Below, in pieces: positions 6,701-64,000 of a stretch of 64,000 nt of DNA. The number at the start of each line of letters is the position of its first letter. Position 1 is the first letter of the stretch. The DNA is from Octopus sinensis. Taxonomy: Eukaryota. The stretch lies in contig NC_043000.1 in assembly GCF_006345805.1 (NCBI RefSeq), forward strand, positions 16,554,001 through 16,618,000, read 5' to 3'. The position numbers are program-made.

Positions 6701-9700
6701 TTCCTTTAAAGAAATCCCCAATACACTTGGGTAAACTAAGGCAAGAAAGAATTCAGATATAAATAAATATTGTCAAGAGTTTTCAGACAAAAGAACAAAA
6801 TGGTTAGCAAAACTTACACAATTCTTTAAAATTTCAAATTATCAGGTAGGTTAAAAAAAAAAATCATTGCTCTAATATATATAGATGTTTCTGCGAGAGC
6901 AAAAACAATCATCAAAACAAATTACAAAAAAAAAAGCAAAGGTAACTAAAATGAGACAGTTTTGTGGGGGGTTGAGGAAGGATTTCAGATGATATCAAAC
7001 AAAACAAACAATTGTTAAAAATGAAAATAAGAATAATGTAGAAAAAAAAAATTGGGGAAGGCAGAGAGAGAAGAGGATTTGCACTTAACTTGGAATGATG
7101 CACAAAGCATGTTGGAAGTTTGCAAAAGACTTTTTGCAGTCAAAGCAGCAGAGATAGATAGATAGATGGAGATGGGGGTTGGTATTAAGGAGATCCAGAG
7201 ATGTCTTCATTGATATGAGAGAGAGAGGAGGGTAGGGGGAAGATGTTTTTATTTTTAAGGATGGAGTAAATTGCTAGAAGACAACAGGACTGGAAGCTAG
7301 ACATCGTCTTCCAGACACTGTCGTTGGTCAAATTCACTTGGAGTTTGCATAAACTGGTCAATAATTTGCTGCATGCTTTCACGCAATTCTTCTGGTGTTT
7401 CATTCTGTTGTTCCACACGAGACTCTTCTTGAATAAATGTTTCTTCTCGTCCGTCTCGCATGTATGTCTTTTTGTGAATTTCTTTCTTCATCATTAGGCT
7501 AGTAGCAGGAGAAAGAACGAAATTTAAAACCCAAACGAAGCAGAGGATAGCAAGAAACAAAAGATGTGACAAAATTGCATGTATAGTTAATTTCAATTAA
7601 ATAAATAAATTGCCTGTCTAGGAATTTCCAGTTCGACATTGGCTAAATGCTATTTTCCTCATGTAAGTTTCTTTCGGTTTAACCAAATATCCAAAGAACT
7701 TAATCTGATAGAGATTTTGTAAAAATATGAAACCATTTAAAGAACATAAAAAAACAAATTATGCTGGTTAGTAACTTCCATGCTAAATTTTAGAGCCATA
7801 TTGTCGTATTATTATTTAAAAGAGCAACTGGCTTTGCAGACATGCAGACAGCAAAACGTTTGTCTTGCAAATGATAATAGAAATAAATTCAGCTGTCAAA
7901 GATAATAAAGGCATAATTTTACAAGAAACAAAGCGACTGGATTAACAGGTAAAGAATTATGTTAAAAAAAGAAAAGGAGCAATTCTAAAATTGATGAATA
8001 TTTTTGTTTTAATAAAAAAAAGAAATGTAAATATAAAAAAAAAAATATATAATAAAATAGGTCTTTGAGTTGAAAGAATTTGTAACAACTTTAATTCTTT
8101 CTGCTGTATTCTTGAAACTTGAGAAATAGGAAGGTTGCCCCTCCTTAGATTAGCTGGGAGAGGAATGTATCCATAGAACAATGTTAACTCTAATCGAAGG
8201 TGATTTCGTCAACTGACTATTGATCTGAAATAAACACTAAAATTAACCATGTCTTGTTTGACACCAATGTTGATGTAGTGGCCACCATTCTAGAACTGTT
8301 TACATTTGTATCCAATGTTAGACATTTAAATGTGTGAGTGTAAATATAGAAGAAATAACTGGCAAAAACAGAATGTATGTGTCTCCCTACCTATCTAGAT
8401 GGGTCCAAACTGAGAGGGACTTCTCATCTCATTTCCATCAAAAAAGTGTCTACACTTGTGTATGTACTGTCTCTAAATATGTGAAGGAATGAGGCCTAGT
8501 GGTTAGGGGGATTTGGGCTTATGATCATAAGATAGTAGTAAGTTCATTTCCTGGACTGGGCAGTGGATTGTGTCCCTGAGTAAGGTATTTCATTTCACAT
8601 TACTCCAGTCTACTCAACTGGAAATGAGTAGCAGCCTTATGCTGGGGCAACCTTCTCTCCTTCCAGCTGTCATATTCTTGATATTCCACTGGATCGAAGG
8701 TAAAAGGGCCAGAAAGGGTGTCTATGTCCACTCAAGAATACATAGGCATCTAAAACAATTAACAAAAGCATGATACACACTGTCAAGCCATACTCACTTG
8801 CAATTGACAGTAATGATTATGTGTGAGTGCATCTATGTACTGTCACTATACTGGCCTCTGCTCCTCAGAGGTGGCTGCTCTCATGCCATCTCTGCACAGG
8901 CATTTCTGATTCACTCATCTCTCCTCTCTTATCACTAATATTGTCTCCATTACCCCACCAGGCCCTTTACTAATCACTAGATCCCCACCGTTCTTTCCCA
9001 GAATAGCTCTCTGAACTTCCCTGTCTGTAGCCATTGTCCAAGAGGAATGTTGTGTTGATCTAAGACATTAGGGTGGTGTGGACTGCAAAGCTCATAGGTG
9101 TGATCATTTCCTCTAGATCACACCAATCAATAAAATAATAAGTAACATGAAGACAGGACTTCTAAAAATGGTAAAAGAGAAAGTTAAGTAACCTCTATAT
9201 ATTTCAAACACAAAGGCACTTTATTAGAAGTGAATGGCTTAGAAATGTAGGTTTATGTAGATCCTGCCATGTTGATTGCTGTAAGAACCACAACCCTGCT
9301 TTGTCAGAGTAGTCGTAGGTTTTGTATTTTATTTCTGTACTAGCACTATGACCCGGTGTTGCTGGGTCATAGTGCTAGTGCATGCATATACAGCTGTGTG
9401 CGTGCACACATACATGCGAATACTGTCCAAATCTCCGACCAATCACATACAGCTAGCTGGCATTCAACTGGTGTATCAAGTTTCAGGCATTTTGATTGGG
9501 TTTTGGATAGAAAATTCACAAAAAAGTCACTTCTATTGATTTTTTTCATGTCTTTGCAGGGTGACTTGGGAAATGTAAAGATGTGCACGACCACCCTTGG
9601 ATGGTTTTGAATGACCATAGAAAGTGCGGGCCCTCTAACTGAAAAATTGTGAATTTGTATAAAGGACACACACACACACAGACAGTCATTTTGCCATTTA

Positions 9701-61180: not shown

Positions 61181-64000
61181 ATATATATGGCTCCAACTTT
61201 GATCCTATTGCGCAGCACCTTGGGCTAGTGACAAGTAATGTAGACTTAGGTTGTTCAATGCCATGTGATAAGAATTTGGTAGGCACGAACTATGCTGAAG
61301 CCAGTGTGTGTGTATGTGTGTGCATATATGTGTCTGTGTTAATTGGTGGTATAAATATGGGCATTGGGTTGTATCCTTTTATGTGAAAAAAAAACTAAAC
61401 AATTCGACAAATAGAGATCGATAACAAAAATACCAGACTGAAGTACTGGGGTCAGTATAATTGACTAAAACCCCTAAAGACAGAAGCACTGTCATGGCTG
61501 TAGTTGAATGACAGTAACCAGTAGAAGTATAAATGCATAACGAATATTTAGTTTGGCTCTGAGATAAATTGGTGAGTTAAAACTCAGAGAGAGAGAAGAA
61601 ACATATGGGTTGTCACAAAGGAAAGATTGAAATTTCCATAGAGTGGGGCCTTACAGAATCATAGAAAATGAATGAGTGTGCAACCCATTGGTCAAAATCA
61701 CAATCTTTCAAAATCTTTATTCTTTTAATGTTAGACCAAAATGTTTGTTGTCTGAGATAACTCTATAAATATTTTAAGGTTAAAAAAAAACAGGAGTGGC
61801 TGTGTGATAAGTAGCTTATATATATATATATGTGTGTGTATGTGTGCTTGTCCCCCTAGCATCGCTTGACAACCGATGCTGGTGTGTTTACGTCCCCGTC
61901 ACTTAGCGGTTCGGCAAAAGAGACCGATAGAATAAGTACTGGGCTTACAAAGAATAAGTCCTGGGGTCGATTTGCTCGACTAAAGGCGGTGCTCCAGCAT
62001 GGCTGCAGTCAAATGACTGAAACAAGTAAAAGAGTATAGCATTTTTTGTATTGAATTAATTTATGTGTTCTCTATATTGTTTTACATCATCATTCTCTCT
62101 CACACATATGCATATATCAATACATATATATGCATGTGTGTGTGTGTAATGTTGAATAAATGGTCATATACAAAAAGCATTGATCAACTGTAGCAAACAA
62201 TGAGGCAAAAAAAGACAAAAATAATTATAATTATAATGGTAAAAATATGTGGGGATAAAACAAAAACTGTTTACGTGAAACATTTAGATGGCTAGATGCA
62301 ACAAACAGCATAGCATAGCATCAAGAGGTTTCAACATTACCTGATTCTTCCCCATGGCCTTCAGAAGACACTGTGGTGGTGGTCGTGGTGGTTGGCTCTT
62401 GACCTGCTAGTAGAGAAGGGTTTTGTCAATACACCGACTTAAACAGAAATACACAGACGAATGAAAACCCCGAAAAACAGACACCAAACAACAGTAGGGA
62501 GGTAAAGAATAAAAAGTGATACAATACACACATACACATGTGAAAAGTGATACAGAAATGAAAAATAAATCAATGTGCAATATAAAACTGTTAAAAACAC
62601 CCACTGGAAGATCAAAAACTGTTTAGATGACAAGAAGGAAAAAAAGAGGTCAGTTGCTAAAAAAACAAAAACAAATGTACAAAATAGAAACAATCAGTTA
62701 TTTAGTTTTAGCAGGCTTTTATGGTGGTATTTAGGAATATATGAGATGAAAAACTTCAAAGACAAAAAACAATTTTCAAAAGAAACCCAGTTCGTTTTTA
62801 TTTTAAAAATTGAATCTCAGTTTTAATTTTATGTCTCAAGGTTGAAACTCTGATCAGGAATATTGATCCAATGCTCTATAAATTTCAGTAAATTTAAAAA
62901 AAATTATTGTTGGACACCAAATTATTCCTAGATTTTAAAAATCAGAATAATCACTACTAGATTTTAATATAGAACTGAGTTTGTTTTGTTGTTTGCTGTG
63001 ATTTTTTTTTTTTTTTTGAAGAAAAGGAAATGGAAAGAGACAGACAGAAAGAGCTTGAGAAGAGAGAACCACACACCACTATCTTTTAAATTAATGTAAT
63101 CCTTTTGACATTGTACCTCTGACAAATTGACCTGCATAGAAGGGCTGTTATTGTGGCAATACTGATCTCTATGGAGAACCTGGTACTGTTTATATATAAA
63201 GATGCGGTGGCGAGCTGGCAGAAACGTTAGCCCACCGGGTGAAATGCGTAGCCGTATTTCGTCTGTCGTTGCGTTCTGAGTTCAAATTCCGTCGAGGTCG
63301 ACTTTGCCTTTCATCCTTTCGGGGTTGATAAATTAGGTACCAGTTACACACTGGGGTCGATGTAATCGACTTAATCCCTTTGTCTGTCCTTGTTTGTCCC
63401 CTCTGTGTTTAGTCCCTTGTGGGTAGTAAAGAAATATATATATATAAAGATGCTGTTATTGTGTAGATACAGACCTGTTACTGAGATACTAATCCCTACA
63501 CAAGGGGCTGCTATTGATACAATGTAACGAAGTATGATGATAGTAGGAATAAGACCGTTGCATAAATCAAGGGAAATGCAACATGAATAGTTCAAAATAT
63601 CCATAAACAGTTATAGGTCTACATCAAGTGGCAGCTGCCACTACTAGACAAAATGTGCCTTGTACTTTGTGAACAATACACAAATGCTCAACCCTAGCAA
63701 GACACAGGAGTATCCAAGTTGTCAGGTCACTGGATAGTCAGTTGGGTATATAAGTGAGATAAATAGATTTATGTCCAAAGAGCTGCATACCTCCCTGGAC
63801 AAAAATCTATATATGTAACTCACACATATCATCATAATCATTTTAATGCCCACTTTTCCATACATGCATGGGTCAGGCAGAATTTGTAGATGCATATTTT
63901 TCTAAAGCTGCATGCTCTTTCCGTTGCCAACCCTCACCCATTTCTAAGCAAGGTAATATTTCCCACAGCTAGACAAATTTTCTACAGAAGACTGCAAACG

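What the first reader, a model, noticed from the sequence alone, without database searches (positions are those of the whole stretch)
7297..62403. Modular giant-tail gene: eight consecutive symmetric phase-1 exons from 9 nt to 9,252 nt
Seen: eight exons (63, 7026, 846, 147, 9252, 9, 57 and 567 nt) each begin and end in phase 1 with AG/GT boundaries. They are followed by a phase 1-to-2 exon and a phase-2 terminal exon, and all junctions read through without stops (about 6,076 aa if all are used). Known: giant ankyrins (Drosophila Ank2-L/XL, C. elegans UNC-44L, vertebrate giant AnkB/AnkG) gain neuronal tails through giant exons. Inference: any subset of the eight can be skipped in frame (256 theoretical combinations), so tail length could be tuned from about 90 aa to about 6,000 aa on a shared C-terminus. 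Both giant exons appear internal and skippable, and no death-domain exon lies between them.
Basis: partly seen in the sequence, partly recalled or inferred. Interest (0 to 1): 0.8.

Follow-up and report, generated by a model that had tools for sequence, protein, structure and literature searches.

The report
Tail exons of a giant ankyrin
This stretch holds the tail-coding exons of a giant ankyrin gene, including two enormous exons; the layout is already known from other invertebrates, so it is a sound annotation rather than a new kind of thing.

Summary
The minus strand of the window carries the 3' tail of a giant ankyrin gene. So are the 61-nt phase 1-to-2 exon and the 202-nt terminal exon. 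All have AG/GT borders. All six junction codons that could be checked match two unnamed database proteins (7658 and 7515 aa) that are 91-100% identical to the window exons, apart from the short 61-nt exon (84.6% in a 26-residue alignment that runs past its ends). The 7515-aa protein starts with ANK repeats, two ZU5 domains, UPA and a death domain, then runs straight into the 63-nt exon. The ankyrin identity therefore holds, with both giant exons downstream of the death domain.

Two exons are not supported. The 9-nt exon is no better than chance. The 567-nt exon is an open frame through a 21-nt minisatellite and is absent from both proteins.

Both proteins contain both giant exons. The only splicing differences seen are the optional 147-nt exon and an internal donor that shortens the 846-nt exon to 522 nt. 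No skipping of a giant exon was seen.

Two non-homologous long exons after the death domain are already described for Aplysia, Drosophila and Tribolium ankyrins (Jegla 2016). This is a new member of a known kind, of modest interest.

The parts
62341..62403 (-). 63-nt exon, phase 1-1 (Thr-rich, QEPTTTTTTTVSSEGHGEES)
   Evidence: AG/GT borders. The identical 20 residues occur in P0004 and P0005 and are flanked by the predicted junction codons G and D.
52492..59517 (-). Giant exon 1, 7026 nt, phase 1-1. It holds a 57-nt (19-aa, KSKSPSPEPKDKSPSPLQL-like) repeat array at about 56682-58360.
   Evidence: Only AG..GT open candidate of this length. 90.7% identical to P0004/P0005 over 2356 aligned positions. 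TRF arrays. S+E 29.0%, SETDKP 64.9%. Its 3' end (52714-52637) matches Mytilus P0003, 19/27 identical, E 7e-8.
46531..47376 (-). 846-nt exon, phase 1-1, with an internal alternative donor at 46855|46854 (522-nt form 47376-46855, also 1-1). It encodes a conserved, disordered motif cluster: SSYENVY, DIGDRFDTKQ, SSSYEQLY, ITVESGLD, a conserved Ser (ERSxS in most relatives) and a final block that reads RTYSAPG in the window and RHxSSPD in most relatives.
   Evidence: 40 library proteins at E<=0.001. Alignment A1 has 13 invariant columns. The 3' half is conserved in P0006 (61% identity over query 23-281) and in Mytilus P0003. AlphaFold2 mean pLDDT 51.7, pTM 0.15. No Pfam family.
34532..34678 (-). 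147-nt cassette exon, phase 1-1 (acidic)
   Evidence: Present in P0005 (98% over 50 aa) and absent from P0004. One of 3 phase-1 candidates of this length.
22157..31408 (-). Giant exon 2, 9252 nt, phase 1-1. It holds a 30/60-nt (TSKTEEPVVT-like) repeat array at 28488-29745, four SL.EFE.LE motifs at 24182-23772, and an aromatic-rich block at 22784-22557.
   Evidence: Only candidate of this length. 94.8% identical to P0004/P0005. TRF. S+E 28.9%, SETDKP 58.6%. Not homologous to giant exon 1, best E 4.7. Motif coordinates.
16414..16470 (-). 57-nt exon, phase 1-1
   Evidence: 19 of 19 residues identical in P0004 and P0005. Junction codons E and D fit.
14846..15412 (-). It is an open frame through a 21-nt x 18.2 minisatellite (14932-15317), and the frame stays open to 14502, past the proposed donor.
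   Evidence: Absent from P0004 and P0005. Composition is D/G/Y-rich (S+E 9.0%), unlike the rest of the tail.
10127..10187 (-). 61-nt penultimate exon, phase 1 to 2
   Evidence: AG/GT borders. It encodes RRDSDVAPDAETEDSAQAT, as in the tails of P0004 and P0005, with junction codons D and S.
7297..7498 (-). Terminal coding exon, phase 2, stop TAG at 7299-7297
   Evidence: 100% identity over 69 aa to both proteins. 43.9% identical to the C-terminus of Mytilus P0003, E 1.5e-11.

Best explanation
The window holds the 3' tail-coding part of a giant ankyrin gene on the minus strand. Upstream of the window lie the exons for the ANK-repeat, ZU5-ZU5-UPA and death-domain core. Inside it, a run of phase-1 introns separates six symmetric exons (63, 7026, 846 or 522, 147, 9252 and 57 nt), then a 61-nt exon and a shared terminal exon.

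Shown here: these exons are joined in this order in two near-identical database proteins, and both giant exons sit in one polypeptide of about 7,500 aa. The 147-nt exon is optional. The 846-nt exon has an alternative internal donor that removes the second half of a conserved motif cluster.

Inferred from what is known of Drosophila Ank2-L/XL, C. elegans UNC-44L and vertebrate giant ankyrins: the Ser/Glu-rich, repeat-bearing and largely disordered tail of about 5,700-5,900 aa is a neuronal extension. It would reach from the membrane-spectrin skeleton, held by the ANK and ZU5-UPA core, to axonal microtubules and other partners. The repeat arrays would act as spacer, and the short conserved islands as docking sites. 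Those islands are the end of giant exon 1, the 846-exon motif cluster and the C-terminal exon. The shared intron phase means cassette exons can be added or dropped without changing the C-terminus. How far the cell uses that freedom for the giant exons is not known.
For: - Giant open frames of 3098 and 2358 aa on one strand.
- A single AG..GT open candidate for each large exon.
- Exon order and every checked junction codon match P0004 and P0005.
- P0005 residues 1-1870 carry Ank (many), ZU5 (2 stretches, E 4.3e-38), UPA_2 (E 4.3e-53) and Death (E 4e-15, residues 1688-1764), then the 63-nt exon sequence.
- The composition of both giant exons meets the bias reported for ankyrin long exons, S+E about 25% and SETDKP above 55% (PMC5135030, section 9 part 1 of 2 read). 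Here the values are 29.0/64.9% and 28.9/58.6%.
- Repeat arrays are as described for some ankyrin long exons.
- The long exons lie downstream of the death domain, as in protostomes.
- Two non-homologous long exons, as reported for Aplysia, Drosophila and Tribolium.
- The tail is conserved in a bivalve protein at three islands.
Against: - The window itself holds no ANK, ZU5, UPA or death-domain exon.
- P0004 joins the same tail to a different 2036-aa N-terminus without ANK repeats.
- No transcript data were available, so tissue specificity and exon usage in this organism are unknown.
- No fold or known domain was found in any tail exon. The functional reading is by analogy only.
- A PDB sequence search with the first 130 aa of giant exon 1 found no ankyrin-Atg8 entry: 6 hits, all E >= 0.28, none an ankyrin.
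Confidence: 0.88

Rival explanations
1. Isoform length is set mainly by alternative transcript ends (alternative terminal exons, polyadenylation or promoters), not by in-frame skipping. Within giant transcripts both giant exons are constitutive, and short ankyrin isoforms end upstream of the window on another C-terminus.
For: Both proteins found carry both giant exons. No protein of 117-2000 aa with this terminal exon was found, and none of 4098-5000 aa with giant exon 1. P0004 shows an alternative 5' part. Drosophila ank2 encodes two alternative giant isoforms with unique C-terminal tails (PMC6703079, passages read).
Against: Both negative searches use a word index, cover limited length ranges and are called weak evidence by the tool itself. 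The seven consecutive phase-1 introns and the optional 147-nt exon show that in-frame cassette use happens at least on a small scale. The Mytilus model lacks any match to giant exon 2 while keeping the flanking islands.
Confidence: 0.35
2. The tail is also, or mainly, expressed without the ankyrin core, from an internal promoter, as a separate giant disordered protein of the P0004 type.
For: P0004 (7658 aa) begins with Met and a 2036-aa D/Q/H-rich, repeat-bearing N-terminus. That N-terminus has no BLASTP match in P0005 at E<=1e-3, and it enters the same 63-nt exon in phase 1.
Against: P0004 may be a truncated or mis-joined model. Its N-terminal block could equally be a further optional exon block between the death domain and the window. 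No data on transcription starts were available.
Confidence: 0.15
3. The 567-nt exon is a real, lineage-specific cassette exon that is simply absent from the two proteins found. The same is far less likely for some 9-nt exon.
For: The 567-nt segment has AG/GT borders and is open in phase 1. Its repeat unit is 21 nt, which preserves the frame. Microexons occur in ankyrin genes, for example the Ank3 microexon paper PMC13046794 (seen in a search listing only).
Against: It is absent from P0004 and P0005 and has no significant likeness to them or to Mytilus. Its composition is unlike the rest of the tail. The frame runs on 344 nt past the proposed donor. The donor (AAG|gtttgc) and the acceptor tract are weak. 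Candidates for the 9-nt exon are no more frequent than in shuffles.
Confidence: 0.12

Closest known systems
Aplysia californica giant ankyrin (Jegla et al. 2016, PMC5135030)
   Same: It is a mollusc ankyrin with two tandem long exons that are not homologous to each other (section 8 read). Here giant exons 1 and 2 show no similarity, best E 4.7. The paper places the long exon downstream of the death domain throughout protostomes (section 9 part 1 of 2 read).
   Different: No Aplysia sequence was available, so orthology of the individual exons, their sizes and their phases could not be compared. The paper's S2 and S4 Tables, which hold them, are supplements and were closed.
Drosophila Ank2-L / Ank2-XL
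   Same: Giant neuronal ankyrin with two non-homologous long exons downstream of the death domain, one carrying a large repeat array. The tails organise axonal and synaptic microtubules (passages).
   Different: In Drosophila the two giant isoforms are alternatives with unique C-terminal tails. Here both giant exons lie in one chain and share one C-terminal exon. No sequence similarity was tested.
Vertebrate giant ankyrin-G (480 kDa) and ankyrin-B (440 kDa)
   Same: Same core architecture, plus a single-exon insert of several kb that is Ser/Glu-rich and disordered.
   Different: The vertebrate giant exon lies between UPA and the death domain (abstract of PMC12798937 in the listing). Here both giant exons lie after the death domain. 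Jegla et al. report no detectable homology of long exons between distant phyla.
Mytilus galloprovincialis hypothetical protein P0003 (1628 aa)
   Same: It shares three tail islands with the window: the end of giant exon 1 (19/27 identical), the 846-exon motif cluster (47.5% over 80 aa, E 8.5e-17) and the C-terminal exon (43.9%, E 1.5e-11).
   Different: It has no match to giant exon 2. It carries no Pfam domain and no ankyrin core in the model, and is probably a partial gene model.

Membership tests
Giant ankyrin (bilaterian ankyrin with long exon) | ANK repeats, ZU5-ZU5-UPA and a death domain encoded by the same gene | tested here: met
   Met in the near-identical protein P0005, not in the window itself. 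Pfam finds Ank families, ZU5 (2 stretches), UPA_2 and Death in residues 1-1870, immediately followed by the 63-nt exon sequence. The window holds none of these exons.
Giant ankyrin (bilaterian ankyrin with long exon) | One or two exons of several kb that form single uninterrupted open frames | tested here: met
   7026 and 9252 nt. The reported mean is 8103 +/- 4850 bp.
Giant ankyrin (bilaterian ankyrin with long exon) | Composition bias of the long-exon polypeptide: S+E about 25%, S/E/T/D/K/P above 55% | tested here: met
   29.0% and 64.9% for giant exon 1; 28.9% and 58.6% for giant exon 2. The criterion comes from PMC5135030 section 9.
Giant ankyrin (bilaterian ankyrin with long exon) | Protostome-type position: long exon downstream of the death domain | tested here: met
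   Death domain at P0005 residues 1688-1764; the 63-nt exon starts at residue 1844 and giant exon 1 at about residue 1865.
Giant ankyrin (bilaterian ankyrin with long exon) | Neuron-specific inclusion of the long exon(s) | not testable with these tools
   No expression data for this organism.
Drosophila-type alternative giant tails (L versus XL, each with its own C-terminus) | The two long exons are used in alternative isoforms with unique C-termini | tested here: not met
   Both P0004 and P0005 contain both giant exons and end on the same terminal exon; their last 160 residues are identical. Isoforms with only one giant exon were not found but cannot be excluded.
Vertebrate giant AnkG/AnkB | Giant exon inserted between UPA and the death domain | tested here: not met
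   Both giant exons follow the death domain.
Vertebrate giant AnkG/AnkB | Extended LIR motif (W-x-x-F/V plus a C-terminal helix) in the giant exon that binds GABARAP/Atg8 | tested here: inconclusive
   Giant exon 1 has DSSEWVVIDDSDL (W59, I62, D66 at +7) and EEWVKVS (W95, V98) near its start. These fit the core pattern described for AnkG: W1989, F1992 and an acidic residue at +7 (passages). A PDB sequence search found no ankyrin-Atg8 entry. Binding could not be tested.

The most novel reading that the evidence does not exclude
Unlike Drosophila, where two giant tails are alternatives, this ankyrin strings all its giant modules on one shared C-terminus through an unbroken run of phase-1 introns, so the tail is a true combinatorial cassette system. 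At its centre sits an ancient, unannotated motif cluster (SSYENVY, DIGDRFDTKQ, SSSYEQLY, ITVESGLD, then a final block that reads RHxSSPD in most relatives). The exon's 3' boundary and its embedded alternative donor (G|GTGAGT, read as Gly-Glu) appear conserved across its closer relatives. That would give a splicing switch that keeps or removes half of a docking site. Together with LIR-like Trp motifs at the start of giant exon 1, this would point to small functional islands in giant ankyrin tails that are conserved where Jegla et al. found no long-exon homology between distant phyla.
Probability: 0.2. Interest if true: 0.55.

Novelty: new member of a known kind. Interest (0 to 1): 0.3.

Why it matters
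It gives an exon-level, junction-checked map of a giant ankyrin tail in a mollusc-like genome. Ankyrin long exons are often missed or mis-joined by automated annotation, so such a map is useful. It also flags two testable details: an alternative donor that halves a widely conserved motif cluster, and a uniform intron phase that permits, but does not prove, combinatorial tail lengths. It does not change the picture of giant ankyrins set out by Jegla et al. 2016.

Tried and rejected
- Pfam on every exon translation found nothing above cutoff. The only matches were E 0.23 and 0.28, far below the gathering scores. Pfam on Mytilus P0003 found nothing.
- Word-index protein searches. The terminal exon against proteins of 117-2000 aa gave none. 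Giant exon 1 residues 950-2341 against proteins of 4098-5000 aa gave none. The 846 exon against proteins of 493-2000 aa gave only P0003. Proteins above 5000 aa cannot be reached this way, so no source names for the giant relatives were obtained.
The origin and names of these proteins stay unknown.
- The ESM Atlas gave no usable hit for the C-terminal 611 aa of giant exon 2. For the 846 exon the best scores were 0.78, below the level the tool calls a lead.
- AlphaFold2 on the 846-exon alignment gave mean pLDDT 51.7 and pTM 0.15, so no fold search was made.
- A PDB sequence search with the start of giant exon 1 found no ankyrin or Atg8 complex.
- Rfam over the whole window found 0 matches.
- The 567-nt exon against the Mytilus tail looked alike by eye (EDGAVEYYD...GIPQ against DDGTAEYD...GIPE) but is not significant: 107 of 500 shuffles reach the score. 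Rejected.
- The terminal exon against the N-terminus of P0004 is not significant: 278 of 500 shuffles.
- Literature. No paper on a cephalopod giant ankyrin appeared among the 12 listed of 2,307 (titles and abstract starts only). None of the 10 listed of 90 combined ankyrin with 'intron phase', 'symmetric exon' or 'phase 1-1'.
The orthologous loci of other molluscs could therefore not be fetched, and exon phases there stay unchecked.

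
Full report
**What is in the sequence.** The window (64,000 nt, no N, 36.9% G+C) has its two longest stop-to-stop frames on the minus strand: 22140-31436 (3098 aa) and 52463-59539 (2358 aa). Both translate to Ser/Glu/Thr/Asp/Lys/Pro-rich, low-complexity protein with internal repeat arrays. The short exons cannot be picked from sequence alone. There are 12 candidates for 63 nt and 22 for 147 nt over all frames. 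In phase 1 alone there are 3 for 147 nt, 12 for 57 nt and 12 for 9 nt.

**External check of the exon chain.** All searches were made exon by exon.

An exhaustive phmmer search with the 846-nt exon translation found 40 proteins at E<=0.001 (23 at <=1e-10, 3 at <=1e-30). Among them are two giants, P0004 (7658 aa) and P0005 (7515 aa), 96% identical to the query.

| Window feature | Identity to P0004/P0005 | Note |
|---|---|---|
| Giant exon 1 | 90.7% | gaps fall in the repeats |
| 5' part of the 846 exon | 96-99% | |
| 147-nt exon, 34678-34532 | 98% | P0005 only |
| Giant exon 2 | 94.8% | |
| 57-nt exon, 16470-16414 | 100% | |
| 61-nt exon, 10187-10127 | 84.6% | 26-residue alignment that runs past the exon's ends |
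| Terminal exon, 7498-7297 | 100% | |

The 20 residues of the 63-nt exon (62403-62341) are present in both proteins. The six split codons predicted from the window bases all match the proteins: G+AT=D, G+GT=G, G+AT=D, G+AA=E, G+AC=D and AG+C=S. The codon entering the 63-nt exon (x+GT, Gly in both proteins) shows that the upstream intron is also phase 1. The window therefore has seven consecutive phase-1 introns, six symmetric 1-1 exons, a 61-nt phase 1-to-2 exon and a phase-2 terminal exon, all with AG/GT borders. From general knowledge (recalled, not computed here), about 30% of introns are phase 1, so seven in a row is far from random. It is, however, what alternatively used or shuffled exons in disordered regions often show.

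**What does not hold.**
- The 9-nt exon is indistinguishable from chance. There are 10 AG-9nt-GT phase-1-open sites between giant exon 2 and the 57-nt exon, against 14.4 +/- 3.4 in 200 shuffles. Neither protein has extra residues at that junction.
- The 567-nt exon is an open frame through a 21-nt x 18.2 minisatellite (14932-15317), and the frame continues 344 nt past the proposed donor. Its D/G/Y-rich composition (S+E 9.0%) differs from the rest of the tail. It is absent from P0004 and P0005, best E 0.71. It shows no significant likeness to the Mytilus tail: 67 of 300 and 107 of 500 shuffles reach the score.

Inside the 846-nt exon there is a consensus donor, AAG|gtgagt at 46855|46854. It gives a 522-nt exon that is again phase 1-1. 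Both P0004 and P0005 use it, joining to giant exon 2 (P0004) or to the 147-nt exon (P0005). The proteins read ...SAESK-D..., where the window would give ...SAESKE-D.... That is a one-residue difference I attribute to divergence between the two genomes.

The 3' 324 nt of the exon are nevertheless coding. They are conserved in P0006 (61% identity over query residues 23-281) and in Mytilus P0003 (ITVEEGLDKL and following).

**Identity.** Pfam finds no domain in any window exon. The first 1870 residues of P0005 carry Ank repeat families (E down to 8e-179), ZU5 (two stretches, E 4.3e-38), UPA_2 (E 4.3e-53) and Death (E 4e-15, residues 1688-1764). They are followed at residue 1844 by the 63-nt exon sequence and then by giant exon 1. 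The gene is therefore an ankyrin with its long exons downstream of the death domain.

This matches what Jegla et al. 2016 (PMC5135030; section 8 read in full, section 9 part 1 of 2) describe for protostomes:
- giant ankyrins in every bilaterian group examined, including mollusks;
- 8 of 23 loci with two tandem long exons;
- in Drosophila, Tribolium and Aplysia, two long exons that are not homologous to each other.

Here giant exons 1 and 2 share nothing, best BLASTP E 4.7. Their composition criterion (S+E about 25%, SETDKP above 55%) is met by both giant exons. Repeat arrays of 57 nt (about 23 copies) and 30/60 nt (about 43 or 22 copies) fit the range they report.

The only named relative is a Mytilus galloprovincialis hypothetical protein (P0003). 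It shares three islands with the window and nothing with giant exon 2.

**How it probably works.** Shown: the exon order, the phases, the co-occurrence of both giant exons in one chain, one optional cassette (147 nt) and one alternative donor.

Inferred by analogy: the tail is a disordered neuronal extension. AlphaFold2 on the best-conserved part gives mean pLDDT 51.7. Its repeat arrays would act as spacer and its conserved islands would dock partners, as for Drosophila Ank2-L/XL, whose tails organise synaptic and axonal microtubules (PMC6703079, passages).

A difference from Drosophila is that there the two giant isoforms are alternatives with unique C-termini. Here both giant exons share one C-terminal exon.

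Whether the giant exons are ever skipped is open. No shorter protein with this C-terminus (117-2000 aa) or with giant exon 1 alone (4098-5000 aa) was found. These searches are weak and leave the ranges 2000-4098 aa and above 5000 aa unexamined.

**Side observations.**
- The 846-exon module is a widely conserved, unannotated motif cluster. Alignment A1 holds the window exon plus 24 of the 38 short hits, chosen by eye for spanning both halves; 14 were left out. It has 13 invariant columns.
- Most short hits look like single-exon ORF calls. Conservation stops at ...K/R-G, where the window has its phase-1 donor, then runs into unrelated hydrophobic sequence. That suggests an old, fixed exon boundary.
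- In the 10 closest rows of A1, the Gly-Glu at the internal donor is followed in 10 of 10 by L, F, S or C, residues whose codons can start with T, as G|GTGAGT would require. In the 15 more distant rows this does not hold. This is an inference from protein sequences only.
- P0004 carries a 2036-aa non-ankyrin N-terminus with about 25 DDHECRYGLKHTDQHG-like repeats. It enters the same 63-nt exon and has no match in P0005. It lies outside the window and may be an alternative 5' block or a model artefact.
- Two Trp motifs near the start of giant exon 1 fit the LIR core described for ankyrin-G, but a PDB sequence search gave no support.

**Verdict.** This is a correct and useful exon map of a giant ankyrin tail, with two of the ten proposed exons unsupported and one alternative donor added. 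The kind of gene and its two-long-exon layout are already in print. The supplements of that paper (S2 and S4 Tables), which may list comparable mollusc exons, could not be seen. I rate it a new member of a known kind, of modest interest.

Noticed in passing
window 46855|46854 (minus strand), inside the 846-nt exon: A consensus internal donor AAG|gtgagt is read as Gly-Glu when the long form is used. In the 10 closest rows of alignment A1 the next residue is L, F, S or C in 10 of 10, compatible with a conserved GGTGAGT. In the 15 more distant rows it is not.
   Followed up: partly
window 46531-47376 (minus strand): An unannotated conserved motif cluster: SSYENVY, DIGDRFDTKQ, SSSYEQLY, ITVESGLD, a conserved Ser, and a final block reading RHxSSPD in most relatives. 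It has 40 library hits at E<=0.001, no Pfam family and a low-confidence AlphaFold2 model. Many hits end ...K-G-T/I/S at the window's donor position. Several distant ones continue K-G-T-x-x-P-L-S, which I cannot explain.
   Followed up: partly
outside the window (protein P0004, residues 1-2036): A relative's protein joins the same 63-nt exon to a 2036-aa D/Q/H-rich N-terminus with about 25 tandem DDHECRYGLKHTDQHG-like units and GVYHVD...LHRVD motifs. It has no ANK repeats and no match in P0005. It may be a third optional giant block, an internal-promoter isoform or a model artefact.
   Followed up: partly
window 59350-59315 and 59239-59189 (minus strand, giant exon 1 residues 56-67 and 93-109): Two Trp-centred motifs, DSSEWVVIDDSDL and EEWVKVSAVKEKFEDKI. 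The first has an acidic residue at +7, and both resemble the LIR core described for vertebrate giant ankyrins. A PDB sequence search gave no ankyrin hit.
   Followed up: partly
window 24182-23772 and 22784-22557 (minus strand, giant exon 2): Four spaced SL.EFE.LE motifs (SSLLEFERLE, SSLGEFERLE, SSLAEFENLE, SSLAEFERLE) and a 76-aa aromatic-rich block (NPFLDNEG...YTMTEWEAMRNAKK) stand out from the low-complexity tail. The Atlas search of this region gave no usable hit.
   Followed up: partly
window 1355-2273 (+ strand): Remnant of a mariner/Mos1-like transposase. HTH_48 matches 1355-1609 (E 1.1e-5, 25.9 bits against a cutoff of 24.1). The rest is spread over three overlapping frames, so it is broken by frameshifts.
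   Followed up: partly
window 17988-18180, 48109-48374, 60388-60510: Intronic tandem repeats: 62 nt x 3.1 (95% matches), 85 nt x 3.1 (96% matches) and (TA) x 62.5.
   Followed up: no
window 27862-29787 and 33970-34914 (+ strand): Long open frames antisense to giant exon 2 (641 aa) and across the 147-nt exon (314 aa). Neither has a Pfam family. They are most likely by-products of repeats and biased composition.
   Followed up: partly
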